IMG/VR virus record: IMGVR_UViG_3300044769_000080
Length of the DNA: 64,000 nucleotides
Source: a virus
Reading direction: 5' to 3' (one strand)
Part shown: positions 34,895 to 60,586 of the stretch, in pieces
How positions within the stretch are numbered: the first letter of the stretch is position 1
Layout: each line of letters starts with the position of its first letter
The notes under the pieces: model-generated
Seen by the model: the letters and a program-made list of their open reading frames with translations, nothing else
What the model was told of the DNA's origin: nothing
Database searches by the model: none
Program-made: the position numbers and the translations under genes

Positions 34895-35352
34895 GGATTC
34901 AGGTGCTGAAACAAATTATCTCAGGTGGACAGTATGGAGCTGACCAAGGAGGCTCTGAAGCTGCCATCACACTTGGCCTTGAGCCGGGAGGATTCATTCC
35001 GAAGAATTATCTGACTGAGCGTGGTGCTTTGTCACTGGACTTTGTGCGGCGTTGGAAGCTTACTGAGCACAATGCAACTGGTTATCCTCCGAGGACCGCT
35101 GCTAATGTCCGTTGGGGACATGGAACAGTGATCTTCGGTGACGTTACCAGTGCTGGCTCGAAGCTTACGCTTCGTCTGTGCAAGGAAGAAGGCAAACCGT
35201 GTCTTACGAATCCAACATCTGATCAGCTAAAGAGGTGGGTGGAGGAGAATAAGATCGAGATACTGAATGTCGCTGGTAATCGTGAGAGCAAAGCTCCCGG
35301 TATTTACCAGCAAGTGCATGATACCATCGTCGCAGCCTTCGGAGGCAAGTAA
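34891..35352 (+). CDS. Rossmann-like nucleotide-binding protein, LOG/SLOG/DprA-like (153 aa)
   Basis: N-terminal ISGGQYGADQGGSEAA and later NVAGNRES resemble GGxxGxD motifs of the SLOG/LOG superfamily. Low certainty. Confidence 0.35.
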   Translation: MRIQVLKQIISGGQYGADQGGSEAAITLGLEPGGFIPKNYLTERGALSLDFVRRWKLTEHNATGYPPRTAANVRWGHGTVIFGDVTSAGSKLTLRLCKEEGKPCLTNPTSDQLKRWVEENKIEILNVAGNRESKAPGIYQQVHDTIVAAFGGK

Positions 35353-43024: not shown

Positions 43025-44359
43025 ATGTCACTGATTCTCGTTGGGATCGCAGCTGCGGCTGTTGTCCTCTCAGTCGGACTCGTCCTCGCCTTTGCATGGC
43101 GTGTGGTGGTGCCGACAAACATTGTTCACATTGTGCAGTCCAGCAAGAAAACCACAAGCTATGGTGCTGGAAGCGCGTCTGGGAACACATACTACAACAT
43201 TCCATCGTTCGTTCCGGTGTTTGGTGTCAATCGCATCACGCTGCCGATCAACAACTTCTCAATCCCGCTGCACGCCTACGAGGCGTATGACAAGGACCGA
43301 GCCCCGTTCGAGCTTGACCTGATTGGGTTTTTTGTCGTGACTGACACCAACCTCGCGGCATCCAGGTGTGCAAGCTTCGACGAGCTGAAAGGCCAGTTGA
43401 TGTCAATCATGCAGGGTGCGGCACGAACCATCCTCGCACGGCATGATATCAATGAAATCATGGGCGACCGTGCAACGTTTGGCAAGGCGTTTACTGACGA
43501 GGTTGACCACGGCCTCACAGCATGGGGCGTGCAGACTGTCAAGTCGTTGGAACTGATGGACATTCGGGATGCCAAGGCCAGCAAAATCATTGCTGACATT
43601 ATGGCGAAGAAATCCTCGAAAATCTCGATGGAATCCCGCACAACCGTGGCCGAGAACGGCCGCCTCGCACAGCTGGCAGAGATTGAAGCGAATCAGGCTG
43701 TTGAGGTTCGCAAGCAAGAACAGATACAGCAGGTTGGACAGCGCAAGGCTGAACAGGAACGGGAGGTTGGTATCGCGAACGAGCGCTCCAAACAGCAGGT
43801 GCAGGCCGAGGCGAAGACCACCAAGGAACGTGAGATGGCCGTTGCTCAGGTGCAAGCTGTGAAGCAGGCTGAGATTAACAAGGAAGCTGCGATTATCAGT
43901 GCTGAACAGCAGCGCCAGACACAAGTCATCTCGGCTCAAGCACAACGTGCAGTTCAGGTCACCGAGGCTGAAGGCGAACGCGATGCCCTCACACTCAAGG
44001 CCGCTGGCGTCAGGGCTGAAGGTGAGGCCAAGGGTGCAGCCAAGCTCGCCGTTGATATGGTTCCCATCACAACGCAGGTTGCGCTGGCGAAGGAAATCGG
44101 TGAGAACAAGGAATACCAGCATTACCTTGTCACGGTTGAGCAGATCAAGGCGAACAAGGAAGTTGGTGTTGCGAACGCTGCTGCCCTCGACAAGGCCGAA
44201 GTCAGGGTGATTGTGAACTCTGGCAACGTGCAGAGCGGCATTTCGACTGTGACTGACCTCATCAGCTCCAAGGGTGGAACAGCGATTGCTGGCTTGCTTG
44301 AGGGGCTGGCTGGTACCGAAGCCGGGGAAAGCTTGGTAAAGAAACTGACCGGCAAGTGA
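43025..44359 (+). CDS. SPFH/band-7 (flotillin/YqiK-like) membrane protein (444 aa)
   Basis: N-terminal TM helix, SPFH-type domain, then a long E/A/Q/K-rich coiled coil with flotillin-like EA repeats. The 374 aa minus-strand ORF across it is antisense artefact. Confidence 0.6.
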   Translation: MSLILVGIAAAAVVLSVGLVLAFAWRVVVPTNIVHIVQSSKKTTSYGAGSASGNTYYNIPSFVPVFGVNRITLPINNFSIPLHAYEAYDKDRAPFELDLIGFFVVTDTNLAASRCASFDELKGQLMSIMQGAARTILARHDINEIMGDRATFGKAFTDEVDHGLTAWGVQTVKSLELMDIRDAKASKIIADIMAKKSSKISMESRTTVAENGRLAQLAEIEANQAVEVRKQEQIQQVGQRKAEQEREVGIANERSKQQVQAEAKTTKEREMAVAQVQAVKQAEINKEAAIISAEQQRQTQVISAQAQRAVQVTEAEGERDALTLKAAGVRAEGEAKGAAKLAVDMVPITTQVALAKEIGENKEYQHYLVTVEQIKANKEVGVANAAALDKAEVRVIVNSGNVQSGISTVTDLISSKGGTAIAGLLEGLAGTEAGESLVKKLTGK

Positions 44360-44535: not shown

Positions 44536-44611
44536 GCATCCGTAGCTCAATTGGCAGAGCAGCGGGCTTTTAACTCGTGGGCTGGAGGTTCGACTCCTCC
44601 CGGATGCACCA
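44536..44611 (+). tRNA. tRNA-Lys (anticodon UUU)
   Basis: GCATCCGTAGCTCAATTGGCAGAGCAGCGGGCTTTTAACTCGTGGGCTGGAGGTTCGACTCCTCCCGGATGCACCA. Perfect 7 bp acceptor, D-arm with GG, anticodon loop CTTTTAA, T-arm GGAGG/TTCGACT/CCTCC, encoded CCA. Confidence 0.8.
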
Positions 44612-48109: not shown

Positions 48110-49159
48110 ATGACAAAAACACGTTACGTTGATGATGTGAAAGTGCAGGCTCCGATTGATCAGGCCCTCATCAACCATGTTGCCCTCGTCGTTGACGGGT
48201 CAGGTAGCATGGCGGGCCTCGAAACCACGGTTGTGCGAGTCGTGGATGAGCTGATGGCAACCCTCGCGAGCAAGTCTCGTGAAACCGATCAGGAAACTCG
48301 TGTCAGTCTGTATGTGTTCGAGAACACCCTGTCAATCAAATGTCTCACATATGACAAGGATGTCCTCCGCATGCCATCGATGAAAGGCCTGTATCGAGCT
48401 GTCGGTAACACGCCCCTCATCGATGCTACGCTCAAGTCGATTGATGATTTGAAACAGTCAGCCACGCTGTATGGTGATCATGCGTTCCTCATCTATGTCC
48501 TGACGGATGGCGCTGAGAATGCGTCGAAGCATGCGCCTGATTCGCTTCGCAAGACAATCCAACAGTTGGACGAGAACTGGACCCTCGCGTGCTTCGTTCC
48601 TGACCGGACTAGTAAGAACGCAGCTGAGAGATTCGGTTTCCCTGCTGATAACGTGCAGCTATGGGAAGTGACCGAGGGTGGCTTGAAAGATGCTGCTCGG
48701 ACGATTACCAATAGCGTTTCCAGCTATTACACGATGCGCTCTAGCGGCGTGCGTGGTAGCAAGAACCTGTTTTCGATGGACCTCAGTAAACTGTCGAAGT
48801 CAACAATAGCAAAGAAACTGACGCCGCTCACGTTCGGCCAGTATCGCATGTTCGACGTGAAAGACAAGACACCGATTGCACATTTCGTGGAGGTGCAGCT
48901 ACGTCGGCCGTATAAGCTGGGTGAGGCTTACTACCAGCTAACCGAGCCGGTCAAGGTCCAGCCACAGAAACAAGTGTGTATCTGGGACCGTAAGAAGCAT
49001 GTCCTCTACGCCGGTAACGAAGCACGTCAGTTGCTTGGTCTGCCGAGCTACGAGGTCAAGCTGGAGCCTGCGGCTACGCCTGACTTCGATATCTTTATCC
49101 AGAGCACGAGCGTAAACCGAAACCTCTTGCCGGGACAGAAGGTTGTGGTGCTATCATGA
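48110..49159 (+). CDS. von Willebrand factor A (vWA) domain protein (349 aa)
   Basis: MIDAS motif VALVVDGSGSMAG (DxSxS) near N-terminus, later T and D positions. Stop overlaps the start of the NAMPT-family gene. Confidence 0.55.
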   Translation: MTKTRYVDDVKVQAPIDQALINHVALVVDGSGSMAGLETTVVRVVDELMATLASKSRETDQETRVSLYVFENTLSIKCLTYDKDVLRMPSMKGLYRAVGNTPLIDATLKSIDDLKQSATLYGDHAFLIYVLTDGAENASKHAPDSLRKTIQQLDENWTLACFVPDRTSKNAAERFGFPADNVQLWEVTEGGLKDAARTITNSVSSYYTMRSSGVRGSKNLFSMDLSKLSKSTIAKKLTPLTFGQYRMFDVKDKTPIAHFVEVQLRRPYKLGEAYYQLTEPVKVQPQKQVCIWDRKKHVLYAGNEARQLLGLPSYEVKLEPAATPDFDIFIQSTSVNRNLLPGQKVVVLS

Positions 49160-50649
49160 ACCTGCTCCCACCTCTGCGGAAAGATCAATACTATGTCAAG
49201 GTGCTGACAATGCAGTTGTTACCTCCCCTGAGGGCCGACGGATATAAGTGCGACCACCGTTCACAGTACCCCAAGGGCACGACCCTCGTGTACTCGAACG
49301 CCACCTGTCGTGGCAGCCGCCTCGCTGGTGTCGATCAGGCAGTTGTCTTCGGCCCTCAATATTGGGTCATCGAGCATCTGTCCCGAAGATGGTTTGCTGA
49401 TTTCTTCAACAAGCCCCTCGACCGGGTGATGCGGACCTACAAGCGTAGGATTGATAACTACCTCGGCCCTGGCGCGATTACGTATGACCACATCGAGGCG
49501 CTCCACAAGCTGGGCTACTTGCCACTATGCGTGAAGGCGCTGCCCGAGGGAACCCTCGTGCCGATGCGTGTACCCTATCTGACTATCAGAAACACGCATC
49601 CAGACTTCTTCTGGCTGACTAACATGCTCGAAACCAACCTCAGCAACGTGGTGTGGGGAATGGTGAACAGCGCAACGATTGCGTTCACGTATCGCAGGCA
49701 GTTTGAAGCCTTCGCCCGCATAACCGGATTTCCTCGTGAGATGATCAAGTGGATGGGACATGATTTCAGCTACCGGGGCATGTTTGGTGAGGACGCTGCC
49801 ATCATGTCTGGCATGGCTCATTTGCTGTCATTCACCGGAACCGACACCATCCCTGCTATCGACGGGCTGGAGGAGTATTATGGAGCAAATTCTGACACCG
49901 AACTCGTTGGGGGCTCCGTTCCGGCTACTGAGCACAGTGTTATGTCTATGGGCGGGCAGGAGTCCGAGATTGACACCTACCGGCGACTCATTAGTGAGGT
50001 TTACCCCAAAGGCATCGTGTCCGTTGTCTCAGATACATGGGATTACTTCAACGTGCTCGATACTATCCTTCCGGCGCTCAGAGAAGTTATTCTGGGGCGA
50101 GATGGAAAGGTAGTCATCCGGCCCGATAGCGGTGACCCGGTTGAGGTTATCTGCCAGAGCATGGAGAAGTTGTGGGCCACCTTTGGCGGGACGGTCAACG
50201 AGAAGGGTTATAAGGAGCTTGATCCTCACATCGGTCTGATCTATGGTGATAGCATCACGCTTGAGAGGCAGGGGAAGATTCTCAGCAGGCTTGAGGAGAT
50301 GGGCTTTGCGAGCTTGCCTGTGCTGGGGATTGGGAGCTTCACGTATCAGTACAACACAAGAGACACCTTGGGGCAGGCAATTAAGGCTACGTATGGAGAG
50401 GTCAACGGTGAGAGGCGTGAAATCTTCAAGCAGCCCAAGACTGATGACGGGACGAAGAACAGCGCGAGGGGCTTACTTGCGGTTCATCGGGCTGATGGCG
50501 ATCTTCCAGGTGGTAGGCTGTATCTCAAGGAGTCATGTAGCTGGAAGGAGGAAGCTGGCGGTGAGCTGCTGACCGTGTTCATGGACGGTGAGGTTAGAAA
50601 CTTTCAGACACTTGCCCAGATTCGAGCGCGGCTGGAGGCGCAACTCTGA
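49156..50649 (+). CDS. nadV: nicotinamide phosphoribosyltransferase family enzyme (NAMPT/NadV; possibly Namat-type) (497 aa)
   Basis: Long colinear matches to NAMPT: GTDTI, SVPATEHSV, VSVVSDTWDYFNV, VIRPDSGDP, NEKGYKEL, LIYGDSI, GIGSF, KQPKTDDGTKNSARGLLAVHR. Confidence 0.75.
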   Translation: MNLLPPLRKDQYYVKVLTMQLLPPLRADGYKCDHRSQYPKGTTLVYSNATCRGSRLAGVDQAVVFGPQYWVIEHLSRRWFADFFNKPLDRVMRTYKRRIDNYLGPGAITYDHIEALHKLGYLPLCVKALPEGTLVPMRVPYLTIRNTHPDFFWLTNMLETNLSNVVWGMVNSATIAFTYRRQFEAFARITGFPREMIKWMGHDFSYRGMFGEDAAIMSGMAHLLSFTGTDTIPAIDGLEEYYGANSDTELVGGSVPATEHSVMSMGGQESEIDTYRRLISEVYPKGIVSVVSDTWDYFNVLDTILPALREVILGRDGKVVIRPDSGDPVEVICQSMEKLWATFGGTVNEKGYKELDPHIGLIYGDSITLERQGKILSRLEEMGFASLPVLGIGSFTYQYNTRDTLGQAIKATYGEVNGERREIFKQPKTDDGTKNSARGLLAVHRADGDLPGGRLYLKESCSWKEEAGGELLTVFMDGEVRNFQTLAQIRARLEAQL

Positions 50650-50888
50650 TGTGTGCCATTGAAGGATCAAGCCCATACATCTGGACGATCTACGAGAAAA
50701 TCCCAGAGAACAGGCTCACCGACGACCAGAAGCGCTTTGGCATCACCCATGAGCGTATGTCATGCGGTGATTTTTCAAGCGAGGAACGTGCCAAGATGTG
50801 GCTGGACAATGCTCGTCGTGCCAAAGAACATCCTGAGAACTTCAAGGTCGAGAAGCACATGCTCGACTATCTGTTGAGGTGTCACTAA
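50649..50888 (+). CDS. hypothetical protein (79 aa)
   Basis: ORF track. Confidence 0.4.
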   Translation: MCAIEGSSPYIWTIYEKIPENRLTDDQKRFGITHERMSCGDFSSEERAKMWLDNARRAKEHPENFKVEKHMLDYLLRCH

Positions 50889-51052
50889 TGAAATACAACA
50901 ACTTCCTCACTCCACTGATGGTTGGTGCGTGGATTCCTGTGCCGATTATCATGGCAACCTCAGGCCAGGTTCGACAGGCTTCATGGATCTGGTTGTCTAT
51001 CGTCACTACAGCATGGGTTCTGGCCTGCGTATTCGGCAAGGAAAACGAATGA
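50888..51052 (+). CDS. small membrane protein (54 aa), not in ORF track
   Basis: Translation MKYNNFLTPLMVGAWIPVPIIMATSGQVRQASWIWLSIVTTAWVLACVFGKENE. Confidence 0.3.
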   Translation: MKYNNFLTPLMVGAWIPVPIIMATSGQVRQASWIWLSIVTTAWVLACVFGKENE

Positions 51053-51168
51053 ACATCCTAGAATTCATAGACAAGCACGCAGATGGCCTCGGTTTCCTGT
51101 TGTTCATCTTTATCGTTTTTGTGCTACCAGAGATCATTGATGCGTTTCGGAGGAAGCGTGGCTAAGTC

Positions 51169-51858
51169 ATGACAGCTAAGTTCTATCAAGTCGGTGGGTC
51201 GGTGCGGGACGAGTTCCTCGGCCTGCGCTCGAAGGACATCGACTATTCTGTGGAGGCTGAATCCTATGCAGCAATGCGACAAGCCATTCTTGACCGAGGC
51301 GGAGATATCTTCCTTGAAACGCCTAAGTACTTTACCATTCGGGCGAAGGTTCCCGGCCTCGGTGCGTGTGACTACGTGCTTTGTCGGAAAGACGGAGCTT
51401 ACAGTGATGGCCGACGCCCTGAGACAGTCGAGGTCGGGAGCATCTATGATGATCTCGCGAGACGCGATTTCACGATGAACGCCATCGCTCGGGCTGAGGA
51501 CGGCACAATCATTGACCCGTTTGACGGCAGAGCTGATATCGAGCAGCGTCTTATCAGATGTGTTGGAACAGCGAAAGCTCGTTTCACTGAAGACGGCCTC
51601 AGGATGCTGCGAGCCATCAGGTTCTCGGTAACCAAAAACTTCCGTATCGCAGACGACATCGTTACCTGTATCCGGCATGAGGACTTCTTAGGAACTCGAA
51701 TGTGGGGTGTTTCCGATGAGCGCATTCGTGAAGAGCTTCACAAAATGTTCCAGCACGACAGTGATTATTCGTTTAGCTTGCTTGGGACGTTTCCAGAATT
51801 CAGGCATTTTCTACTGCGTGGAAATCTCTGGCTCAAGCCGACATTGGAGGCGCGATGA
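51169..51858 (+). CDS. Pol-beta-like nucleotidyltransferase of the CCA-adding/poly(A) polymerase head-domain type (229 aa)
   Basis: FYQVGGSVRDEFLGLRSKDIDYSV matches the GG.VRD..LG....D.D signature of class II tRNA nucleotidyltransferases. Protein is short (head plus neck only). Confidence 0.55.
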   Translation: MTAKFYQVGGSVRDEFLGLRSKDIDYSVEAESYAAMRQAILDRGGDIFLETPKYFTIRAKVPGLGACDYVLCRKDGAYSDGRRPETVEVGSIYDDLARRDFTMNAIARAEDGTIIDPFDGRADIEQRLIRCVGTAKARFTEDGLRMLRAIRFSVTKNFRIADDIVTCIRHEDFLGTRMWGVSDERIREELHKMFQHDSDYSFSLLGTFPEFRHFLLRGNLWLKPTLEAR

Positions 51859-52025
51859 AAGTTTAACAAAGTCATCATCGTCTGGTGGAACAACCGCAGG
51901 TTTGCTGAGATTCATGAGGCGAGCTACGAGATCATCGCTGGCGAGCTTCTGCGGCTCTAACGAGGATGGACACCGGTATCTGTGTTTCATCGCAACCGGG
52001 CTTTTGAGCTTGGGGAGGAGATGAA

Positions 52026-52424
52026 GTGAAACTTTTCATACCAGAGCTCCAAACTGTCCTCAAGCTTACCAAAGCTTGGACGTTCCCTGTCGAACTGGAG
52101 CACCGTAACTCAACTCTAATTGAGGTGATGAGCGGTCACAAGGCACAGGACTTCTATCCAACTGTCACCTACGACTGGAAGAATCTTAGTAAGCACTCCC
52201 GTCAGATGACTAATCGCATAGAGCATCCTCCCAAGGTCGAGTGGACTGGGTTACAGGGTAGGATGCCTAAGGGGACGCTTCTCACGGTGGACCGAATCTA
52301 TATCCGTGCAGGTAATGCAACGTTCTCGTCAGTCACGTTCAAGACGAAGTTGAACGGCAAGTCTGTACGTTTCTGGGCAAAACTATCATCGGTCAATACA
52401 ATAGAAGCAGAGGTGGTTGAGTGA
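52026..52424 (+). CDS. hypothetical protein (132 aa), GTG start
   Basis: GGGAGGAG RBS before GTG. Confidence 0.4.
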   Translation: MKLFIPELQTVLKLTKAWTFPVELEHRNSTLIEVMSGHKAQDFYPTVTYDWKNLSKHSRQMTNRIEHPPKVEWTGLQGRMPKGTLLTVDRIYIRAGNATFSSVTFKTKLNGKSVRFWAKLSSVNTIEAEVVE

Positions 52425-53260
52425 GAATCTATACACGAGCTGGAGACTTAGCGTTCGAAGAATTCACATTCCCAGACGGGCAGCCTCACTTCAAGTTGCT
52501 CACTTGGACGAGGGAATTCCGCGATGTGACCATTGAGATTGCGATCAAGTCGCCTCTCGACATCTTCCGTGTACTGTTGGCTGGGAGGGTGCTTTCGGAC
52601 AACAGCTATCACGTTCACCTCAACATCCGTTACTTGCTCGGTGCGAGGATGGACCGACCAATCGACAAGTGGCAGCCTGACACGCTTGCGCTCGTGCGCC
52701 TTATGCTACAGGCTGACGGGCCATTCCATAGTATCCGAGTGTTGGATGTTCACAACCCATCAGCTACCATCGGAATGATTAATGTCCTCCCATTTAAGGT
52801 GGTGAAGGCTGTCTATGATACGGTTGGCGATCCAATCATCATCGTTCCTGACAAGGGAGCGGTGCAGCGGGTTGAGGCATTGACTGCGGCGCTGCGCGTC
52901 AAGAACCGGATTTACTGTGAGAAAACTCGCGACGTGGCAACCGGGAAGATCACTGGTTTCAAGATCCTCAACGCTTTAGTCGCCAATGACGAGGACTGCC
53001 TCATCATTGACGACATCTGCGACGGTGGTGCAACCTTTACGAGCCTTGCGATGGGCCTGAAGGATATTGGTGCGAAGACAGTTAATCTCTATGTCACGCA
53101 TGGCATCTTCAGCAAGGGATTCAAGGATCTTGTAAATGCTCCTGACATGGGCATGAAAGGCCAGATTGATCGCATCTTTACCACGGATTCGTATCGTGAC
53201 TGGCACGTAGTGCCTCATGTGCCTGTGAGCTGTATCCCGGTGAGAATGGAGAATATGTGA
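52421..53260 (+). CDS. prs: ribose-phosphate pyrophosphokinase (PRPP synthetase) homologue, possibly ADPR-PP synthetase type (279 aa)
   Basis: FPDGQ, IRYLLGARMDR (compare IPYFGYARQDR), RVLDVHNP, IIVPDKGAVQRV, IIDDICDGGATF (PRPP-binding DDxxDTGGT-like), YVTHGIFS. Confidence 0.65.
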   Translation: MRIYTRAGDLAFEEFTFPDGQPHFKLLTWTREFRDVTIEIAIKSPLDIFRVLLAGRVLSDNSYHVHLNIRYLLGARMDRPIDKWQPDTLALVRLMLQADGPFHSIRVLDVHNPSATIGMINVLPFKVVKAVYDTVGDPIIIVPDKGAVQRVEALTAALRVKNRIYCEKTRDVATGKITGFKILNALVANDEDCLIIDDICDGGATFTSLAMGLKDIGAKTVNLYVTHGIFSKGFKDLVNAPDMGMKGQIDRIFTTDSYRDWHVVPHVPVSCIPVRMENM

Positions 53261-53535
53261 TGTTGAGAGCTGCATTTGCTGTCGTCATCTTGGTAGCACT
53301 TCTCGCAGGAGCATGCCTCCCAGCAGGCTGCAATGTCAATGCAGTCTTCGGGCAGCAAGCTGAGGCCCACTACGTGCGGTTTCATCGTTACAGCTATAGC
53401 CAGATTGACAACTTCACGAACATTGATATGGTGAAGGATACGCGGGATGACACCTGTTATGTGGTGTACAACCACTCTAATATGACTTATCCGGTGACGT
53501 ATACATCCGTCCCACTCGGACAAGTCAAGTGCTAA
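53257..53535 (+). CDS. lipoprotein (92 aa)
   Basis: MMLRAAFAVVILVALLAGACLPAGC lipobox. Confidence 0.4.
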   Translation: MMLRAAFAVVILVALLAGACLPAGCNVNAVFGQQAEAHYVRFHRYSYSQIDNFTNIDMVKDTRDDTCYVVYNHSNMTYPVTYTSVPLGQVKC

Positions 53536-53608
53536 TCGACACCATCGGGGCAATGATTTTCATCTCATTCCCAGCCACGCTACTTGCGATCTGGATGAGG
53601 AACGATGA

Positions 53609-53794
53609 GTGGAGGCGAAAGTGATCAACAACCCGCCGCGTGTGTTACTTGGTATTGTGCTTGGCTTTGTGGGAGGTGCACTGATATCAAACTCCCTTGG
53701 CCTTGGCTGGGGCATTGGCAACCTCATCGGTGCCATCATTGGGGCAGTTGGAATGGACTGGATACTAGGAACTGATAATGACAACCAAGCCTGA
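53609..53794 (+). CDS. small Gly-zipper membrane protein (61 aa)
   Basis: LLGIVLGFVGGALISNSLGLGWGIGNLIGAIIGAVG. Confidence 0.35.
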   Translation: MEAKVINNPPRVLLGIVLGFVGGALISNSLGLGWGIGNLIGAIIGAVGMDWILGTDNDNQA

Positions 53795-54818
53795 AGTGCT
53801 CATCCTCTCCGGCTTGCCGGGGTCTGGGAAGAGCACATTTGCCGAGGACTGGCTTGTCCAGAAACAAGGACAAGGCGTCCGTATCAACTACGACAACATC
53901 CGCCTTGAACTGTTCGGCACGGACTGGAATTGGAACCGTACTGACGAGGGCAAGATGAAGGACCACGCTATGGAGACGGCGAACGATGCCCTCAAATGTG
54001 GTTATAGCCTTATCATCGACAACACGAACCTGACGCCTAAGGCGAGGGCACCGTGGGAGAACCTTGCTCGCAGCTATGGGCTGACGCCCGAGAACATGGA
54101 ATTTGATACACCTGTTGCCGAGTGTGTCCGTCGCGACTCTTTGAGGAGCGATCGTAGCCGAGTCGGGCGTGCGGTGATTGAACGGTTCGCGCTGTTCAAT
54201 GGATTCATCGACTGGAACGACCGATCTCTGTATCCGAGGGATTTCATCATCGTTGACATGGACGGAACGGTAGCGGATTGTGATTGGCGACGGAAGCTGG
54301 CGTTTGAGGGACCAACCAAGCACAAGGATGTTAAGATTTTCCTTGAATCCTCGAATGGAGTCACCGTTCCGTGTTCATTGAAGAACAAGGTAGTGGACCG
54401 TGAGTGTCCCGAGTGTGGTGGGAAGGCTCGCAAAAACTGGCCTCTGTTCGCGGCGAACGTGGAGAACGATCCACCGATTCAGCCAATCGTGAGTCTTGTC
54501 CAGACGCTCGAAATGTATGGTGGTGAGGATACTAGCGGAGATTTCTCAGGGCTTGATGTGATCGTGGTGTCTGGCCGTGAGATTGGCCCCTCCGGTAAGG
54601 GAACTGAAGCGTGGTTGGAAAAGATGCCGTGGCACACTCTCCACTTGTTCATGCGTAACTCACAAGACTACCGCCCAGATGACGTGATCAAACAGGAAAT
54701 CCTCGACCTCCTGCCGAAGAATCGCATCCGCTACGTCCTCGACGACCGCCAGCGTGTTGTCGATATGTGGCGCAGAAACGGCTTAACGTGCTTGCAGGTG
54801 GCAGATGGCAAATTCTGA
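53778..54818 (+). CDS. pseT: polynucleotide 5'-kinase/3'-phosphatase (T4 Pnk/PseT-like) with inserted zinc ribbon (346 aa)
   Basis: P-loop LSGLPGSGKST, DNTNL, HAD motif IIVDMDGTVAD, VVSGREIG. C-terminus DDRQRVVDMWRRNGLTCLQVADGKF nearly identical in pattern to the T4 Pnk C-terminus. CPECGG insert. Confidence 0.8.
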   Translation: MTTKPEVLILSGLPGSGKSTFAEDWLVQKQGQGVRINYDNIRLELFGTDWNWNRTDEGKMKDHAMETANDALKCGYSLIIDNTNLTPKARAPWENLARSYGLTPENMEFDTPVAECVRRDSLRSDRSRVGRAVIERFALFNGFIDWNDRSLYPRDFIIVDMDGTVADCDWRRKLAFEGPTKHKDVKIFLESSNGVTVPCSLKNKVVDRECPECGGKARKNWPLFAANVENDPPIQPIVSLVQTLEMYGGEDTSGDFSGLDVIVVSGREIGPSGKGTEAWLEKMPWHTLHLFMRNSQDYRPDDVIKQEILDLLPKNRIRYVLDDRQRVVDMWRRNGLTCLQVADGKF

Positions 54819-54993
54819 GTGTCAACCAACCAAAAACATCATGTGCCTCAACTGCTGGAAGGTGGTGGAACAACACTGCGGCTGTTCTCCTCTTCCAGGC
54901 ACTAACACCTGCAAGTGTCCAGAACCAGATCGGTTTGACGCAGAAGCTGCGATTGACGAGCTTCTGGAGGAACTCAAGCATGAGCATATCTAG
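54805..54993 (+). CDS. small Cys-rich protein (62 aa)
   Basis: ORF track. CLNC...CGC...CKC. Confidence 0.3.
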   Translation: MANSECQPTKNIMCLNCWKVVEQHCGCSPLPGTNTCKCPEPDRFDAEAAIDELLEELKHEHI

Positions 54994-55507
54994 CCGCTTC
55001 TCGGAGGAAGTCGAGTCCAAGCTGTACCATCTCGACATCTGTACTCACATCAAGAACGAAGAAGACATTGACATTCTCACTCGTCGTGGCTTCAACGTTA
55101 ACCTTCGCCTGATGAAGACCTCGCCAGTCTATCACGCCATCATAGCTCAGTGCGTGCATTACATCCGCGACTGTGCGACGACCAAGAGGGCTGGCTACTC
55201 CCGGCCGATGGGCTTCAGCGGCGCTAATGCTGGCATCCCGTTCAACATCATTGCGATGCGGGATGGGACGTATATGATCAATCCTCAAGTGATCGAAGCT
55301 AGCGACAAGATGAGGATTACGAGCAGTGACTGTGGCAGCTTGACGCTGAAGAAGCCAATCAACGTGCAGCGTCCGACTTATGTCACCATCGAATACTACG
55401 ACCTCGATGGGAAGCCGCATGTTGTTAGTGGTTTCTTGCCGACTGAGCAGCACGAAATCGACCACAACAATGGGATTCTGATTACTGACCCGCGCAGGAG
55501 GGCCTGA
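54980..55507 (+). CDS. def: peptide deformylase (175 aa)
   Basis: GFSGANAGIP (G.G.AA.Q-like), SDCGSL (EGCLS-like), EQHEIDHNNG (HE.DH metal motif). In frame with ORF-track entry 54767. Confidence 0.65.
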   Translation: MSISSRFSEEVESKLYHLDICTHIKNEEDIDILTRRGFNVNLRLMKTSPVYHAIIAQCVHYIRDCATTKRAGYSRPMGFSGANAGIPFNIIAMRDGTYMINPQVIEASDKMRITSSDCGSLTLKKPINVQRPTYVTIEYYDLDGKPHVVSGFLPTEQHEIDHNNGILITDPRRRA

Positions 55508-55958: not shown

Positions 55959-56186
55959 GGGATGCTCATGTTGCCGATACTGAGGTCAGTGCAGCGATTC
56001 GTGGTTGTCTTGTTCCATTCGGAGACATGGCGATTACTGACTTGCCGAGGAAGCGATTCAGTTGGCCCAAAGTCTACGCCTACACCGACCACGTTAGGGC
56101 CGCTGAAGTTCGTTCAGTTGGAAGTCTCAGACTGGACACAAGGCGGGAGGATCAAGACAGCTAAGGGCATAGGTCATCACGAATCG

Positions 56187-56534
56187 ATGCTTGATGCTCT
56201 GAAACATGACCCGTGTGCGTATTGTGGCGGTAAATTTCCTGCCGGTTCCCACAACAACGGGAAGCGAACGTATGCGTCGATTGACCATATCGCTCCTCTG
56301 AACAGGCATCACGTGAAGGCCAAGCAGGGGAGGGACCATTGGTCGAACATGACTGGTTGCTGCTCTACGTGCAACAACAAAAAACAAAATATCAAGTTGA
56401 TTTACTTCCTCTGGTGGAAGCGAGACGGCTTCAAGCGACCACTGGCACACGTTCTCAGACAGCGCAAGGAGCGATATGGTAGCAGGCTTAACAGAATTCA
56501 ACACATCGTGGCATTCCTACCCGTCGGTGCATAA
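56187..56534 (+). CDS. HNH endonuclease (115 aa; C-terminal part of ORF-track entry 55962-56534)
   Basis: CAYCGGKF...SIDHIAPL...HWSNMTGCCSTCNNKK is an HNH motif. The upstream 75 codons of the ORF-track entry look like out-of-frame overlap. Confidence 0.55.
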   Translation: MLDALKHDPCAYCGGKFPAGSHNNGKRTYASIDHIAPLNRHHVKAKQGRDHWSNMTGCCSTCNNKKQNIKLIYFLWWKRDGFKRPLAHVLRQRKERYGSRLNRIQHIVAFLPVGA

Positions 56535-57495
56535 TCTAGGGCATCCCGCCATCTCCCAGCTTCTCACCGTTCCAGTCCAAGTCGAGGAAAAAATCGACGG
56601 GAGCCAGTTCAGCTTCGGGCTGTTTCCTGACACTGATACGCCTGTCGTGCGGATGGATGGCGGGGTCGGGTATGGCCTGAAGATTCGGTCGCGTGGTGCT
56701 GTGATGCACCCTGACGCTCCGGTGGATATGTTCAAGCGTCCCACCGAGACGGTCAAGTCACTGATTCCCATGCTGAAACTGGGTTGGACGTATCGGGGTG
56801 AGGTGCTTGTCAAGAAACAACACAACGCCCTCGCCTATGACCGCACCCCTGAAGGCTATATCATCATCTGGGACATCAACCCTGGATATGAGGAATACCT
56901 TGATTATCAAGCTAAAGCAGCGGAAGCCGCTAGACTCGGCCTTGAGTGCGTTCCATTACTATATACAGGTATGGTGGCTGGCATTGAGCAATTCCGAACG
57001 TTCCTCGATACGACAAGCTGTCTCGGAGGGCAAAAGATTGAAGGGGTTGTCGTCAAGCCTCTTGGATATAGCTTGTTTGGCACAGACAAAAAAGTCCTCA
57101 TCGGGAAGTTCGTCTCGGAAGCGTTCAAAGAAGTCCACCGCAAAACCTGGGGCGAAAGCAACCCAGCGGGCAAGGACATCCTCGCGCTGATCGGGGCAAA
57201 GTACACGACTGCTGCGAGGTGGCAGAAAGCGCTTGCTCATTTAAGGGAAACAGGAAAGATCGAGGACAGTCCACGAGATATTGGTTTGTTAATCAATGAG
57301 GTACCAGTTGATGTGCTCAGTGATTCTCAAGACGAAATAAAGGAGGCTCTATTCAAATGGGCTTGGCCTCACATTAAAAGACAAGTCACTCGTGGGTTGG
57401 CTGAATGGTACAAAGAGAAACTTTTGGAGAAGTCTTTCTCTTCAGTCGAATCTCACGAATCTGTTGACCAAGAACAAGCATCTCCTGATAAGTGA
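56476..57495 (+). CDS. RNA ligase, Rnl2-like (339 aa)
   Basis: Motif I VQVEEKIDGSQFSF (KxDG), motif IV EGVVVKP, motif V LIGKFV. Size and layout like T4 Rnl2. Confidence 0.7.
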   Translation: MVAGLTEFNTSWHSYPSVHNLGHPAISQLLTVPVQVEEKIDGSQFSFGLFPDTDTPVVRMDGGVGYGLKIRSRGAVMHPDAPVDMFKRPTETVKSLIPMLKLGWTYRGEVLVKKQHNALAYDRTPEGYIIIWDINPGYEEYLDYQAKAAEAARLGLECVPLLYTGMVAGIEQFRTFLDTTSCLGGQKIEGVVVKPLGYSLFGTDKKVLIGKFVSEAFKEVHRKTWGESNPAGKDILALIGAKYTTAARWQKALAHLRETGKIEDSPRDIGLLINEVPVDVLSDSQDEIKEALFKWAWPHIKRQVTRGLAEWYKEKLLEKSFSSVESHESVDQEQASPDK

Positions 57496-57922: not shown

Positions 57923-58255
57923 ATGAGAAAAATTCTATACTCTCCCGGTTATGGTGCTGGATGGAGCACATGGAACAGTGGTGAAGTAGCGCGTTTCATG
58001 CTAGTCTATCAGCCAATCATTGATTTCATCGAAGGTGGTAATTCGTTTACCAACGATGACACTGACGAAAAAACAATTCATCCTTTACTTAAACAGCTTC
58101 AGGATGAATGCCGGGAGAAGTTTGGCAAGGAGTATGTATGCATGCTGGGTGCTGATGACCTAGAAATCTTCACAACTAACAAGCGTGTTCGTATTAGTGA
58201 ATACGACGGCTTTGAGTCGATAGAAGAAGAAGGCGAGTTTGAGGAGTGGCTATGA
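57923..58255 (+). CDS. hypothetical acidic protein (110 aa)
   Basis: ORF track. Confidence 0.4.
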   Translation: MRKILYSPGYGAGWSTWNSGEVARFMLVYQPIIDFIEGGNSFTNDDTDEKTIHPLLKQLQDECREKFGKEYVCMLGADDLEIFTTNKRVRISEYDGFESIEEEGEFEEWL

Positions 58256-58953
58256 AAGAAATAATCGTCCCCGACATTCACGAACAGTTTGAGAAGCTAA
58301 ATAAGCTTGAGTCCCGACTGCTTCAGGCCGACCGGGTAATCTTCCTCGGTGACTGGTTTGATAGTTTCAACGAGCCTCAGCACATCCAGACTGCTTGGTG
58401 GCTGAAGAAGCACATCGACATCAAGGGCTGGGAATTTCTGCTCGGCAACCATGACTGTCATTATGCGTTCAGCAACGCTGGTTTTATCTGTTCCGGCTAT
58501 AGCCCAAAGAAAAAGGAAGACATCGCAAACATCCTGACCATCGAGGACTGGGCGAAGTTCAAGGTTTTCGCCTACACGCATGACAAGGAGTTTCTCCTCA
58601 GCCACGCTGGCCTGCGGCCTGAGACTGCCCACTTCCTGAACGAAGAGGATGCGGCGCTTCAGATTGCCCAACATGGTGGGTTTGGGAATTTCTGGTCAGC
58701 TGGCGTAGCCAGAGGCGGTTATGCTAAGTTCGGTGGCCCAACATGGCTGGATTTCAATCGAGAGTTTCGGCCCATTGACGCACAGAGGCAGATCGTCGGA
58801 CACACGTCAGCGAGCGCTGAAATACGTAGAGTCCGTGGCGCAGGGAAGAACGGCAGCACCGGCAACAATTACTGCATCGATACTGGCTTTCGACACGCAG
58901 CTTTCTACGAGGACGGCACGTTGGAATTCTTGAAACTGGAGGACTTGAAGTGA
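58246..58953 (+). CDS. calcineurin-like metallophosphoesterase / Ser-Thr protein phosphatase (235 aa)
   Basis: FLGDWFD (GDxxD), LLGNHDC (GNH[DE]), later H residues. Lambda-PPase-like. Confidence 0.65.
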   Translation: MAMKEIIVPDIHEQFEKLNKLESRLLQADRVIFLGDWFDSFNEPQHIQTAWWLKKHIDIKGWEFLLGNHDCHYAFSNAGFICSGYSPKKKEDIANILTIEDWAKFKVFAYTHDKEFLLSHAGLRPETAHFLNEEDAALQIAQHGGFGNFWSAGVARGGYAKFGGPTWLDFNREFRPIDAQRQIVGHTSASAEIRRVRGAGKNGSTGNNYCIDTGFRHAAFYEDGTLEFLKLEDLK

Positions 58954-59829: not shown

Positions 59830-60189
59830 ATGAGTGATAAGAAATATTTTGGTGGATTCAATAACCTTGAGGACATTGCACGAGAGTTTGCTGATGAACC
59901 TTACAATAGGAAGCGCAAAATCCCAGAAAACCTCCCAACCGAGGAGCAGATTATCTTCGCTGCTTATGAAGGTGGCAGTTATGAAGGTGCAGCCATCGTT
60001 GTGTATGAGAAAGACGGAAAGCTGTATGAGGTCAATGGCAGTCACTGTTCATGCTATGGCCTAGAAGGTCAGTGGGCGCCTGAGGAGACAACTCGGGAAG
60101 CTTTAGCGATGCGTAAGCTTGCGAGCTACGATTACGAAAAGGACACCCGCACCCGATTCCATGAGCTGTTTGGAGGCACAGATGGGTAA
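59830..60189 (+). CDS. hypothetical protein (119 aa)
   Basis: GGAGG RBS then ATG 59830. In frame with ORF-track entry 59809. Confidence 0.4.
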   Translation: MSDKKYFGGFNNLEDIAREFADEPYNRKRKIPENLPTEEQIIFAAYEGGSYEGAAIVVYEKDGKLYEVNGSHCSCYGLEGQWAPEETTREALAMRKLASYDYEKDTRTRFHELFGGTDG

Positions 60190-60586
60190 GTATAGGATTT
60201 TCGTTTACGGTACGTTGCTGCGAGGGTTCGGCAACTACCGTCGGCTGCTGGAGAAGCAAGCAACGTTCATCACTGAGGCTGAGACGCCTCCAACCTATAC
60301 GCTCCTACACCTTGGTGGTTTCCCCGGCCTGATCGCCGAAGGCACCACCGCTGTGAAGGGAGAGGTGTTTGAATTCGATTCTGATGGTGTCCTGCAAGGC
60401 CTTGATTGGCTAGAGGGCCACCCAACGTTCTATACTCGTACTCCGATCAAGCTGGCCGATGGGACGGATGCTGAGACATACATCCTCAACCTGACCGGCA
60501 AGCATTCATATCGAGCTGTTGAAAACGGTAGCTGGCGCACCGAAACTGGAATCAAAGCGCCAGAACAGGAGGTTGTGAATGGGTAA
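60182..60586 (+). CDS. gamma-glutamyl cyclotransferase-like (AIG2/GGCT family) protein (134 aa)
   Basis: N-terminal FVYGTLLRG (YGTL motif), later VKGEVFEF with the conserved Glu. In frame with ORF-track entry 60119. Confidence 0.55.
   Translation: MGKYRIFVYGTLLRGFGNYRRLLEKQATFITEAETPPTYTLLHLGGFPGLIAEGTTAVKGEVFEFDSDGVLQGLDWLEGHPTFYTRTPIKLADGTDAETYILNLTGKHSYRAVENGSWRTETGIKAPEQEVVNG

What the first reader, a model, noticed from the sequence alone, without database searches (positions are those of the whole stretch)
48110..53260. NAD+ block: vWA protein, NAMPT-family enzyme and PRPP-synthetase homologue, a candidate phage NAD+ reconstitution (anti-NADase immunity) pathway
The 497 aa protein aligns across its length with nicotinamide phosphoribosyltransferase (GTDT, VSVVSDTWDY, RPDSGDP, GIGSF). 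The 279 aa protein is a PRPP-synthetase homologue (FPDGQ, GARMDR, DDICDGGAT).

This pairing matches either the NARP1 logic (Prs-like ADPR-PP synthetase plus Nampt-like transferase rebuilding NAD+ from ADPR) or NARP2-like Nampt salvage supported by Prs. No NMNAT is seen in the window. A vWA protein is translationally coupled upstream, and a CCA-type nucleotidyltransferase lies between the two enzymes.

Such modules let phages survive Thoeris, DSR, SIR2 and SEFIR NAD+ depletion.
Basis: partly seen in the sequence, partly recalled or inferred. Interest (0 to 1): 0.75.

Follow-up and report, generated by a model that had tools for sequence, protein, structure and literature searches.

The report
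Split phage NARP1 NAD+ rebuilding genes
An uncultivated phage carries the two enzymes of the known NARP1 pathway, which rebuilds NAD+ from the fragments left by bacterial NAD+-destroying defences; the neighbouring vWA and tRNA-repair genes do not appear to belong to that pathway.

Summary
All ORFs and quoted motifs are at the stated coordinates.

**Which pathway.** The evidence favours NARP1.
- The 497-aa protein is a Namat (nicotinamide ADPR-transferase), not a plain Nampt. Its best solved relative is SPbetaL1 Namat (E 3e-146, against 1e-62 for human Nampt). It carries the published ADPR-PP selectivity clamp intact (GSFTYQYNTRD plus the loop Arg).
- The 279-aa protein is Adps-like. It fails every curated Prs cut-off, as the validated ICP1 Adps does. 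It keeps the catalytic Lys, the acceptor residues and the Phe cap of the ATP-donor site.
- No NMNAT, Nudix, NadR, PnuC, Macro or RyR domain was found in the ORFs scanned.

**What is unusual.** Only the layout: Namat comes first, and four ORFs (1.77 kb) separate it from Adps.

**What does not belong.** The vWA protein is a real vWA/MIDAS protein, but 78 of 80 homologous loci have no Namat within 10 kb. The short CCA-type nucleotidyltransferase groups with PNKP and an RNA ligase as an RNA-repair set.

**Verdict.** A new member of a known kind, in a phage lineage with no sequenced relative. Interest is low to moderate.

The parts
49156..50649 (+). Namat (nicotinamide ADPR-transferase, Nampt-like), 497 aa. 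This is the second enzyme of NARP1. An alternative start lies at 49210.
   Evidence: - Best PDB match is 9W5W/9W5X, SPbetaL1 Namat, at 3e-146; human Nampt scores about 1e-62.
- 51.6% identity to SPbetaL1 Namat. 13 of 14 catalytic-core residues are identical (A362->S366).
- The selectivity-clamp helix G393-D403, GSFTYQYNTRD, is identical at 11 of 11 positions. The clamp-loop residue R40 maps to R55 (motif definition in PMC12774641).
- At least 66 of the 79 Namats beside IMG/VR Adps genes carry the strict form of the same motif.
52421..53260 (+). Adps (ADPR-pyrophosphate synthetase, PRPS-like), 279 aa. This is the first enzyme of NARP1.
   Evidence: - phrog_619 at 8e-56.
- Fails all NCBIfam Prs cut-offs: TIGR01251 gives 71 bits against a cut-off of 113. 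ICP1 Adps gives 98 bits and E. coli Prs 423.
- ICP1 residues F18, R87, H121, D161, K185, D212, D213, D216 and F221 map to F17, R76, H111, D144, K168, D197, D198, D201 and F206. All are invariant in 33 homologues.
- The PP loop is DDICDGGATF, against DDMIDTGGTL in E. coli Prs.
- 79 of 80 family loci in IMG/VR have a Namat within 10 kb on the same strand.
48110..49159 (+). vWA/MIDAS protein with a beta-rich C-terminal domain, 349 aa. It is an upstream neighbour and is judged not to be part of NARP1.
   Evidence: - phrog_26613 at 3e-97.
- AlphaFold2 model with pLDDT 85.7 matches vWA/I-domains at Foldseek probability 1.0.
- MIDAS residues D29, S31, S33, T101 and D133 are invariant.
- Only 2 of 80 homologous loci have a Namat within 10 kb.
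- No NAD-related gene is annotated within 6 kb of the homologues in Myrna, Kela, BUCT-ZZ01 and Cr30.
- Next to Namat only in same-lineage contigs L006 and L012. It lies 7.5 kb away in L013, and L014 has no NARP1 gene within 8 kb.
50649..51165 (+). Two small ORFs (79 aa at 50649-50888; 78 aa at 50929-51165, with a hydrophobic stretch). These are passengers between Namat and Adps.
   Evidence: No Pfam or PHROG family. No tblastn match in the syntenic relative L006. Another gene caller split the second ORF differently.
51169..51858 (+). Short class-II CCA-type nucleotidyltransferase, 229 aa, head and neck only. It sits between Namat and Adps and probably belongs to the RNA-repair set.
   Evidence: - Pfam PolyA_pol head domain at 1e-20; phrog_24229 'tRNA nucleotidyltransferase' at 7e-52.
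- Covers positions 24-205 of the 396-position CCA model, at 145 bits against a cut-off of 290.
- 60% identical copy in the same position in L006.
- Absent between Namat and Adps in L007, L008 and L012, and absent from all 80 IMG/VR Adps loci.
52026..52424 (+). Uncharacterised 132-aa protein (p132). Its stop overlaps the Adps GTG start (GTGA). Judged a passenger.
   Evidence: - phrog_22676, function unknown.
- Absent from L006.
- Homologues sit beside Thg1 or a COOH-NH2 ligase, not beside NARP1.
- AlphaFold2 pLDDT 84.3; no PDB fold match (best E 0.3); no Macro or RyR signal.

Best explanation
The region encodes NARP1, the known two-enzyme phage NAD+ reconstitution pathway, in a split and order-inverted layout.

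**Proposed mechanism.**
1. A host NADase effector (SIR2, TIR, SEFIR, DSR or similar) cleaves NAD+ to ADP-ribose and nicotinamide.
2. The PRPS-like Adps (52421-53260) transfers the beta,gamma-pyrophosphate of ATP to the terminal ribose of ADPR, giving ADPR-PP.
3. The Nampt-like Namat (49156-50649) couples nicotinamide to ADPR-PP and regenerates NAD+ directly, with no NMN intermediate and no NMNAT.

**Shown here.** Homology, the family-defining residues and motifs of both enzymes, their linkage on one strand in a tightly packed gene array, and the near-universal Adps-Namat linkage in the family.

**Inferred.** The enzymatic activities and the anti-defence phenotype. These rest on published work on SPbetaL1, Bas63 and ICP1 homologues.

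**Neighbours.** The vWA protein, the two small ORFs, the short CCA-type nucleotidyltransferase and the 132-aa protein are neighbours or insertions. They are not pathway components.
For: **Namat**
- Best solved relative is SPbetaL1 Namat (9W5W/9W5X, 490 bits, E 3e-146). An unidentified 'Nampt' (9KE8) scores 370 bits and human Nampt about 215 bits.
- The published signature GS-X-phi-X-phi-X-phi-TRD with aromatic X (PMC12774641) is present as GSFTYQYNTRD, identical to SPbetaL1 at 11 of 11 positions.
- The clamp-loop Arg (R40) is R55. 13 of 14 NAM/NMN-site residues are identical, and the catalytic His is present (H260).
- The strict motif occurs in at least 66 of the 79 Namats next to IMG/VR Adps genes, and near-variants account for most of the rest.

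**Adps**
- Below every curated Prs cut-off, like the validated ICP1 Adps and unlike E. coli Prs.
- Keeps K185 and the acceptor residues. Its PP loop is DDICDGGATF, with the Phe that caps the ATP adenine.
- 279 aa, ending about 36 residues before E. coli Prs, consistent with loss of the alpha11-alpha12 module.

**Linkage**
- 79 of 80 family loci have a Namat within 10 kb on the same strand. This matches the criterion that 97% of Adps-clade genes have a Namat in the immediate vicinity.
- The closest relatives show Namat-Adps overlapping (L007, L008) or in the same split layout (L006, L012).

**Other**
- No NMNAT, Nudix, NadR or PnuC domain in the ORFs scanned.
- No promoter-like or terminator-like excess inside the array.
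Against: - No biochemistry was done.
- The Adps is only 27-35% identical to the three validated Adps proteins (68-104 bits), and 26% identical to E. coli Prs (52 bits). Sequence placement alone is therefore weak.
- Two ICP1 contact residues are not conserved: F92 is I81 and F223 is S208. 31 of 33 aligned homologues also have Ile at the first, and the Felixounavirus Adps (the genus of the tested phage Bas63) has Met.
- Short length and the K-x-R-D-x-x-T-G hairpin also occur in archaeal class III Prs, so they are not unique to Adps.
- My NJ tree had a single Prs outgroup, so it does not test monophyly.
- The two genes are 1.77 kb apart, beyond the largest gap (about 1.5 kb) seen in 79 other loci.
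- Namat retains PRPP-dependent NMN synthesis in vitro, so some Nampt-type activity is not excluded.
Confidence: 0.88

Rival explanations
1. Ordinary or NARP2-like salvage. The Prs homologue makes PRPP, the Nampt homologue makes NMN from nicotinamide and PRPP, and a host NMNAT or an unseen phage NMNAT finishes NAD+.
For: - Both proteins carry the generic family domains and are annotated this way in databases.
- NCBIfam names the 497-aa protein 'nicotinate phosphoribosyltransferase' above its cut-off, but ICP1 Namat gets the same name.
- Namat enzymes keep PRPP-dependent NMN synthesis in vitro.
- The contig is probably an incomplete genome, so an NMNAT could lie outside the window.
Against: - The ADPR-PP selectivity clamp is complete.
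- The Prs-like protein fails all Prs cut-offs and belongs to a family that is Namat-linked in 79 of 80 loci.
- In the published analysis, NARP2-type Nampts form a separate clade found in phages that lack Adps.
- No NMNAT or Nudix domain in the ORFs scanned.
Confidence: 0.06
2. Extended NARP1. One or more embedded or adjacent genes (vWA, the short CCA-type nucleotidyltransferase, the 132-aa protein) is a functional accessory of the pathway. Published precedents are the Macro-domain phosphatase Adpp (NARP1-AP) and the RyR-domain glycosidase RyDEP.
For: - Accessory genes inside NARP1 operons have precedent.
- vWA-Namat and p132-Adps have overlapping stop and start codons.
- The vWA, Namat, NTase and Adps order is kept at about 60% protein identity in L006.
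Against: - The vWA family is almost never near NARP1 (2 of 80 loci), and no NTase occurs in 80 Adps loci.
- p132 is absent from L006, and its homologues sit elsewhere.
- No Macro or RyR domain; p132 has no known fold.
- Conserved order between two 60%-identical phages is what whole-genome synteny gives (PNKP, deformylase, HNH and RNA ligase follow in the same order).
- Overlapping stop and start codons are the norm along this array.
Confidence: 0.06
3. The two genes no longer work together. After separation by insertions, one of them is decaying or has been recruited to another role.
For: The separation and the Namat-first order are atypical. The Namat N-terminus is duplicated.
Against: - Both ORFs are intact and full length with all catalytic residues.
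- Both are conserved at 56-60% identity in L006, and at 48-61% in L007, L008 and L012 where compared.
- Both genes are on the same strand, with no terminator excess between them.
Confidence: 0.02

Closest known systems
NARP1 of Bacillus phage SPbetaL1, E. coli phage Bas63 and Vibrio phage ICP1 (Adps + Namat; ICP1 calls them NrsA/NrsB). Sources: Osterman et al. bioRxiv 10.1101/2024.02.11.579819; PMC12774641; PMC13586617.
   Same: - The same two protein families.
- Namat clamp helix identical to SPbetaL1, and the loop Arg conserved.
- Adps catalytic Lys, acceptor residues and Phe-capped PP loop conserved.
- Both genes on one strand in an accessory gene array of a virulent-looking phage.
   Different: - Gene order is Namat then Adps, seen in 6 of 79 IMG/VR loci, rather than Adps then Namat.
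- The genes are 1.77 kb apart with four ORFs between them; the usual arrangement is adjacent or overlapping.
- The Adps is only 27-35% identical to the validated enzymes.
- F92 and F223 of ICP1 Adps are not conserved.
- The host phage has no nucleotide-level relative in 50,697 phage records.
NARP1-AP (Adps-Adpp-Namat, Vibrio phage Gary) and RyDEP-associated NARP1 (mycobacteriophage DyoEdafos)
   Same: Extra genes sit inside or beside the NARP1 gene pair.
   Different: The extra genes here have no Macro or RyR domain. They do not recur with NARP1 outside this lineage, so there is no evidence that they feed the pathway.
NARP2 (Vibrio phage KVP40 Nampt NadV plus a bifunctional NMNAT/Nudix) and NARP3 (PnuC-like plus NadR-like, Bas30)
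   Same: The goal is the same: restoring NAD+ during infection. NARP2 also uses a Nampt-family enzyme.
   Different: No NMNAT, Nudix, NadR or PnuC was found in the ORFs scanned. The Nampt-family enzyme here has the ADPR-PP clamp and an Adps partner.
Cellular ribose-phosphate diphosphokinase (Prs; E. coli, and archaeal class III such as PDB 4TWB)
   Same: PRPS fold, the RxDR, H and DD..D catalytic framework, and a length similar to class III enzymes.
   Different: Scores 71 bits against the 113-bit cut-off of TIGR01251. The PP loop is DDICDGGATF rather than DDxxDTGGT(L/I/M). It is linked to a Namat, as is the rest of its family.
Phage tRNA-repair sets (T4 Pnkp plus Rnl; phage CCA-type tRNA nucleotidyltransferases)
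   Same: PNKP (53778-54818), an RNA ligase (56476-57495) and a CCA-type NTase (51169-51858) lie around NARP1. Relatives add Thg1, RlaP and Ro60.
   Different: The NTase has only the head and neck domains and fails the CCA equivalog cut-offs. The RNA-repair role is inferred from domains and context only.

Membership tests
Namat (NARP1 enzyme 2) | Nampt-like catalytic core: the NAM/NMN-site residues D13', Y15', F189, S190, R192, D215, A242, R306, D308, G360, D361, A362, G390, S391, plus the catalytic His. | tested here: met
   13 of 14 are identical when mapped through the HMMER alignment to 9W5W (A362->S366). The His is present at H260 in ATEHS.
Namat (NARP1 enzyme 2) | Selectivity-clamp helix signature GS-X-phi1-X-phi2-X-phi3-TRD with aromatic X. 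It is absent from Nampt; human Nampt has GSGGGLLQKLTRD. | tested here: met
   GSFTYQYNTRD at residues 393-403, identical to SPbetaL1 F392...D400. The strict motif occurs in at least 66 of 79 Adps-linked Namats in IMG/VR.
Namat (NARP1 enzyme 2) | Selectivity-clamp loop that supplies a stacking residue; its third residue is Arg, Lys or Tyr. | tested here: met
   G53-S54-R55 aligns without gaps to SPbetaL1 T38-S39-R40. This rests on alignment only, with no structure.
Namat (NARP1 enzyme 2) | Catalyses ADPR-PP + nicotinamide -> NAD+ and prefers ADPR-PP over PRPP. | not testable with these tools
   Needs purified protein and LC-MS.
Adps (NARP1 enzyme 1) | PRPS-like acceptor groove residues (ICP1 R87, H121, D161, D212, D213, D216) and the catalytic beta-hairpin Lys185. 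| tested here: met
   These map to R76, H111, D144, D197, D198, D201 and K168. All are invariant in 33 aligned homologues that include ICP1 and a Felixounavirus Adps.
Adps (NARP1 enzyme 1) | Remodelled PP loop / ATP-donor site (ICP1 C215-S220) with a Phe221/Phe223 lid. | tested here: inconclusive
   The loop is DDICDGGATF. C200, G202 and F206 are conserved. F223 is S208. SPbetaL1 itself has DDLSSFGGTF, so the loop varies within the family. The Phe after the Thr/Ser is shared by all Adps compared here and is Leu, Ile or Met in the three Prs enzymes compared.
Adps (NARP1 enzyme 1) | Adenine contacts for ADPR: Phe18 (from the neighbouring protomer) and Phe92. | tested here: inconclusive
   F18 maps to F17 and is invariant. 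F92 maps to I81; 31 of 33 aligned homologues have Ile and the Felixounavirus Adps has Met.
Adps (NARP1 enzyme 1) | Lacks the C-terminal alpha11-alpha12 module of PRPS. | tested here: met
   279 aa against 315 aa for E. coli Prs, and the alignment ends before the Prs C-terminal extension. Caveat: archaeal class III Prs enzymes are similarly short.
Adps (NARP1 enzyme 1) | A Namat gene in the immediate vicinity (97% of the Adps clade in Osterman et al.). | tested here: met
   Namat ends 1,771 bp upstream on the same strand. 79 of 80 family loci in IMG/VR have a Namat within 10 kb. Four ORFs intervene here, so the genes are not adjacent.
Adps (NARP1 enzyme 1) | Catalyses ADPR + ATP -> ADPR-PP + AMP and does not make PRPP. 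| not testable with these tools
   Needs an enzyme assay.
Canonical ribose-phosphate diphosphokinase (Prs) | Reaches the curated score of TIGR01251, NF002320 or the other NCBIfam Prs models. | tested here: not met
   71.2 bits against a cut-off of 113 (TIGR01251), and 64.2 against 297 (NF002320). E. coli Prs scores 422.7 and 532.6. ICP1 Adps also fails, at 98.3 bits.
NARP2 | A Nampt without the ADPR-PP clamp, plus an NMNAT (often a Nudix fusion) in the same genome, with no Adps. | tested here: not met
   The clamp is present and an Adps is present. No CTP_transf_like or Nudix hit in the ORFs scanned. Caveats: the structural block at about 180-22,000 was not scanned, and the genome is probably incomplete.
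NARP1-AP / RyDEP-extended NARP1 | A Macro-domain ADPR-1P phosphatase (Adpp) or a RyR-domain glycosidase encoded in the NARP1 operon. | tested here: not met
   No Macro or RyR Pfam hit in any ORF from 48110 to 55507, even at E<=5 for the small ORFs. The only weak hit was RIH_assoc at E 0.014, below its cut-off, in the 92-aa ORF. p132 shows no fold match.
vWA / MIDAS domain proteins | A Rossmann-like vWA fold with the MIDAS motif DxSxS...T...D. | tested here: met
   D29-G-S31-G-S33, T101 and D133 are invariant in 37 homologues. The AlphaFold2 model (pLDDT 85.7) matches ANTXR2 and integrin I-domains at probability 1.0.
Class II CCA-adding tRNA nucleotidyltransferase | Head, neck, body and tail domains, reaching the equivalog cut-off. 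| tested here: not met
   Only model positions 24-205 of 396 are covered, at 145 bits against a cut-off of 290. The head-domain motifs GGSVRD, DID, RRD and EDGLR are visible in the sequence. It resembles a CCA-type NTase, but full membership is not shown.

The most novel reading that the evidence does not exclude
The short head-and-neck-only CCA-type nucleotidyltransferase is kept between Namat and Adps in two phages that are only about 60% identical. It, or the vWA or 132-aa protein whose stop codons overlap the Namat and Adps starts, could be a third working part of an extended NARP1, as Adpp and RyDEP are elsewhere. For example, it might act on an NAD-derived nucleotide or signal rather than on tRNA 3' ends.
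Probability: 0.06. Interest if true: 0.6.

Novelty: new member of a known kind. Interest (0 to 1): 0.27.

Why it matters
- It adds a NARP1 counter-defence module in a phage lineage with no sequenced relative. The Adps is a divergent variant, 27-35% identical to the tested enzymes.
- It shows the two genes need not be adjacent or in the usual order. This matters for automated NARP1 detection that relies on adjacency.
- The Namat clamp motif published in 2026 classified this gene from sequence alone, which supports using it as an annotation rule.
- The region also suggests an accessory gene array that combines NAD+ rebuilding with tRNA/RNA repair. This would help when predicting which host defences (NADases, anticodon nucleases) such phages face.
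- None of this changes the current understanding of the pathway.

Tried and rejected
1. **Nucleotide search.** Megablast of the region against 50,697 phage records gave no match. tblastn of the putative portal also gave no match. The phage cannot be named.
2. **Close relatives in IMG/VR.** Single-protein scans for Adps and vWA found nothing. Alignment-based scans were needed.
3. **vWA as a NARP1 partner.** Rejected on neighbourhood statistics and on four annotated phage genomes. The fold search returned only generic vWA domains and gave no clue for the C-terminal domain.
4. **p132 as an Adpp/RyDEP-like accessory.** Rejected. It has no Pfam hit even at E<=5 and no PDB fold match, is absent from the syntenic relative, and its homologues sit elsewhere.
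5. **NTase as an NMNAT substitute.** No support. It is a PolyA_pol/CCA-type head domain and is absent from 80 other Adps loci.
6. **Identifying PDB 9KE8/9KEO as a NARP2 reference.** No paper was found, and the best phage match is only 55%. It was used only as an unnamed comparator.
7. **NJ tree of nine Adps/Prs sequences.** With one outgroup it cannot test clade membership, so it is not used as evidence.
8. **Promoter and terminator scan.** Counts were at or below the shuffle expectation, so it is uninformative beyond 'no obvious internal signals'.
9. **Adps structures.** They are not in the PDB copy; the best Adps hit was an archaeal Prs at 1.9e-12. The residue comparison used the ICP1 sequence and the paper's numbering.

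Full report
**1. What is there**

The window is most of a 64,128-bp metagenomic phage contig. It has a minus-strand block from about 2 to 30 kb whose large ORFs mostly lack Pfam hits (terminase-like ORF), which I take to be structural, and a plus-strand array of tightly packed genes from about 30 to 64 kb.

The finding's interval contains seven + strand ORFs:

| Coordinates | Size | Identity |
|---|---|---|
| 48110-49159 | 349 aa | vWA protein |
| 49156-50649 | 497 aa | Nampt-family protein |
| 50649-50888 | 79 aa | small ORF |
| 50929-51165 | 78 aa | small ORF |
| 51169-51858 | 229 aa | CCA-type nucleotidyltransferase |
| 52026-52424 | 132 aa | unknown (p132) |
| 52421-53260 | 279 aa | Prs homologue |

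Family assignments are far beyond chance:
- The 497-aa protein hits NAPRTase at 3e-38 and phrog_448 at 9e-184.
- The 229-aa protein hits the PolyA_pol head domain at 1e-20.
- The 279-aa protein hits phrog_619 at 8e-56.

The region has no nucleotide-level match in 50,697 phage records. The putative portal has no protein-level match there either. This is an uncultivated lineage.

**2. The Nampt-like protein is a Namat**

Against all PDB sequences, the best hits are 9W5W/9W5X at 490 bits (E 3e-146). An unidentified 'Nampt' (9KE8) scores 370 bits and human Nampt about 215 bits. 9W5W and 9W5X are the SPbetaL1 Namat structures.

The paper that solved them defines what separates Namat from Nampt. This is an adenine-binding 'selectivity clamp' with two parts:
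- a helix with the signature GS-X-phi-X-phi-X-phi-TRD, where X is aromatic;
- a loop whose third residue (Arg, Lys or Tyr) supplies a stacking side chain.

I mapped the paper's residues through the HMMER alignment. The numbering was checked, because every named SPbetaL1 residue had the expected letter. Results:
- The clamp helix is GSFTYQYNTRD (393-403), identical at 11 of 11 positions.
- The loop Arg40 is R55.
- 13 of 14 nicotinamide/NMN-site residues are identical (A362 becomes S366).
- The catalytic His is present.

Human Nampt has GSGGGLLQKLTRD at the clamp position.

As an independent check, I extracted this motif from the 80 IMG/VR loci anchored on an Adps homologue. At least 66 of the 79 Namats there carry the strict GS-aromatic-x-aromatic-x-aromatic-x-TRD form, and near-variants account for most of the rest.

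**3. The Prs-like protein is an Adps**

*Curated models.* NCBIfam's Prs models reject it: TIGR01251 gives 71 bits against a cut-off of 113. They reject the biochemically validated ICP1 Adps in the same way (98 bits). E. coli Prs scores 423.

*Key residues.* I used the residues from the ICP1 Adps structures and an alignment of 33 homologues that includes ICP1 and a Felixounavirus (the Bas63 genus) Adps.
- F18, R87, H121, D161, K185, D212, D213, D216 and F221 all map to identical residues. All are invariant.
- The PP loop reads DDICDGGATF, against DDMIDTGGTL in E. coli Prs.
- The protein ends well before the Prs C-terminal alpha11-alpha12 region.

*Weak points.*
- Identity to validated Adps proteins is only 27-35% (68-104 bits), against 26% (52 bits) to E. 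coli Prs.
- F92 and F223 are not conserved.
- SPbetaL1's own PP loop differs (DDLSSFGGTF).
- Archaeal class III Prs shares the short length and the hairpin motif.

*Genomic linkage.* The strongest argument is linkage. Of 80 IMG/VR loci that encode a relative of this protein, 79 have a Namat homologue within 10 kb on the same strand. This mirrors the published criterion that 97% of Adps-clade genes have a Namat in the immediate vicinity, whereas bacterial prs genes rarely do.

**4. Layout**

In those 79 loci the order is Adps then Namat in 73, and Namat then Adps in 6. The largest gap between the matches is about 1.5 kb.

Here the order is Namat then Adps, with 1,771 bp and four ORFs between them.

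Relatives from the large protein collection show how this arose:

| Contig | Adps identity to window | Layout |
|---|---|---|
| L007, L008 | about 50% | Namat and Adps overlap directly |
| L012 | 48% | two small ORFs between them |
| L006 | 60% | same layout as the window, including the nucleotidyltransferase |

So a Namat-Adps pair was pried apart by insertions in this lineage. Promoter-like and terminator-like sites in the array do not exceed the shuffle expectation. Start and stop codons overlap at several junctions. This is consistent with co-transcription but does not prove it.

**5. The neighbours**

*vWA protein.* It is a real vWA/MIDAS protein. The AlphaFold2 model has pLDDT 85.7 and matches ANTXR2 and integrin I-domains at probability 1.0. 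D29, S31, S33, T101 and D133 are invariant. Its family is large (2,893 hits) and is not linked to NARP1:
- Only 2 of 80 IMG/VR loci have a Namat within 10 kb, and only 1 has an Adps. Only 2 of 80 Adps loci have a vWA.
- In Myrna, Kela, BUCT-ZZ01 and Cr30 no NAD-related gene is annotated within 6 kb of it.
- Within the window's own lineage it sits next to Namat in L006 and L012, 7.5 kb from Adps in L013, and with no NARP1 gene within 8 kb in L014.

I conclude it is a syntenic neighbour.

*Nucleotidyltransferase.* It covers only the head and neck of a class II CCA enzyme: model positions 24-205 of 396, at 145 bits against a cut-off of 290. It does not occur in the 80 other Adps loci.

Together with PNKP (53778-54818), an RNA ligase (56476-57495) and a phage tRNA-Lys(UUU) (44536-44611), it suggests an RNA/tRNA-repair set around NARP1. 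Relatives add Thg1, RlaP and Ro60.

*p132.* The 132-aa protein has no Pfam hit even at E<=5 and no solved-structure fold match. It is missing from L006, and its homologues lie beside Thg1 or a COOH-NH2 ligase.

*Known NARP1 accessories.* The Macro-domain phosphatase Adpp and the RyR-domain RyDEP are both absent.

**6. NARP2 and other pathways**

No NMNAT, Nudix, NadR or PnuC domain was found in the + strand ORFs or in the part of the - strand block that I scanned. The Serglycin hits are artefacts of the Gly-Ser linkers I used to join ORFs.

The block at about 180-22,000 was not scanned, and the genome is probably incomplete. Absence is therefore only supportive. With the clamp and an Adps present, NARP2-type salvage is unlikely (about 6%).

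**7. Mechanism**

This is inferred from published biochemistry on homologues.
1. After a host NADase splits NAD+ into ADPR and nicotinamide, Adps transfers the beta,gamma-pyrophosphate of ATP to the terminal ribose of ADPR.
2. Namat then joins nicotinamide to ADPR-PP to give NAD+ directly.

This would blunt the defences reported as NARP1-sensitive (SIR2-HerA, DSR2, type I Thoeris, Kongming, SPARSA). It would not blunt aRES, whose product ADPR-1P needs the Adpp phosphatase that is absent here.

*Shown here:* family membership by defining residues, and linkage.

*Not shown:* enzyme activity, expression and phenotype.

**8. Verdict**

The vWA protein and the nucleotidyltransferase are not part of the pathway on present evidence.

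This is a new, divergent and unusually arranged member of a known system. It is useful for annotation and for mapping counter-defence gene arrays, but it would not surprise a specialist.

Noticed in passing
window 51169-51858, 53778-54818, 55962-56534, 56476-57495, 44536-44611: An RNA/tRNA-repair-like gene set surrounds NARP1. It comprises a short CCA-type nucleotidyltransferase, a PNKP (AAA_33 kinase plus HAD_PNKP phosphatase), an HNH endonuclease, an RNA ligase (PF09414, phrog_548) and a phage tRNA-Lys(UUU). Related contigs add Thg1, RlaP and a Ro60/TROVE protein (L006, L012, L013). This points to counter-defence against anticodon nucleases alongside NADases.
   Followed up: partly
window 34891-35352 (+): A 153-aa protein matches the circularly permuted YpsA SLOG family (PF12694, 2e-33) and has no PHROG match. 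SLOG domains bind nucleotide or ADPR-type ligands (from my own knowledge, not tested), so it could relate to NAD-derived signalling. Its start overlaps the stop of the 424-aa ORF upstream, and the 241-aa ORF downstream starts on the last base of its stop codon; both lack family hits.
   Followed up: no
window 49156-49248: The Namat ORF begins with an 18-codon leader that repeats its own N-terminus (MNLLPPLRKDQY..., then MQLLPPLRADGYK...). The relative L012 starts VNLLPPLRKDGYK. A second ATG at 49210 has AAGGTG 7 nt upstream. The true start, and hence the translational coupling to vWA, is uncertain.
   Followed up: partly
window 52026-52424 (+): A 132-aa protein of a small phage family (50 hits) has conserved MKLFIPEIGT...W.F...E.RN and DRIYIR.G...FSSVTF...RFWAKL.DVN motifs. 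The AlphaFold2 model is confident (pLDDT 84) but matches no solved fold. The only weak matches are to uncharacterised phage proteins such as one from Agrobacterium phage Atu_ph07.
   Followed up: partly
window 48110-49159 (+), residues ~235-349: The C-terminal beta-rich domain of the vWA protein also occurs without the vWA domain's match in Virus Rctr197k and Rhizobium phage RHph_I1_18 (tblastn covers residues 234-346 only). It carries invariant Q331, S332, S334, N336 and R337 (window motif QSTSVNR). Its function is unknown.
   Followed up: no
window 43025-44359 (+): A 444-aa protein has an SPFH/Band-7 domain (2.6e-06) and no PHROG match. It lies just upstream of the tRNA-Lys gene.
   Followed up: no
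window 54767-55507, 58246-58953, 60119-60586, 60579-61790: Further accessory genes lie downstream: a peptide deformylase, a calcineurin-like phosphoesterase, a GGACT-type gamma-glutamyl cyclotransferase and a phiEco32-like COOH-NH2 ligase. The last two also recur near Adps or vWA in related contigs (L007, L008, L013, L178).
   Followed up: no
window 28271-28434 (-): ARAGORN calls two adjacent tRNA genes: tRNA-Arg(tcg) and an 87-nt tRNA-Ala(agc). The second is unusually long for a tRNA-Ala.
   Followed up: no
PDB 9KE8/9KEO (external): A deposited 'nicotinamide phosphoribosyltransferase' of unidentified source scores 370 bits with the window Namat. It has GAQTYQRNTRD where Namat has its clamp helix. 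No paper was found, and the best phage match is 55% (SPbetaL1).
   Followed up: partly
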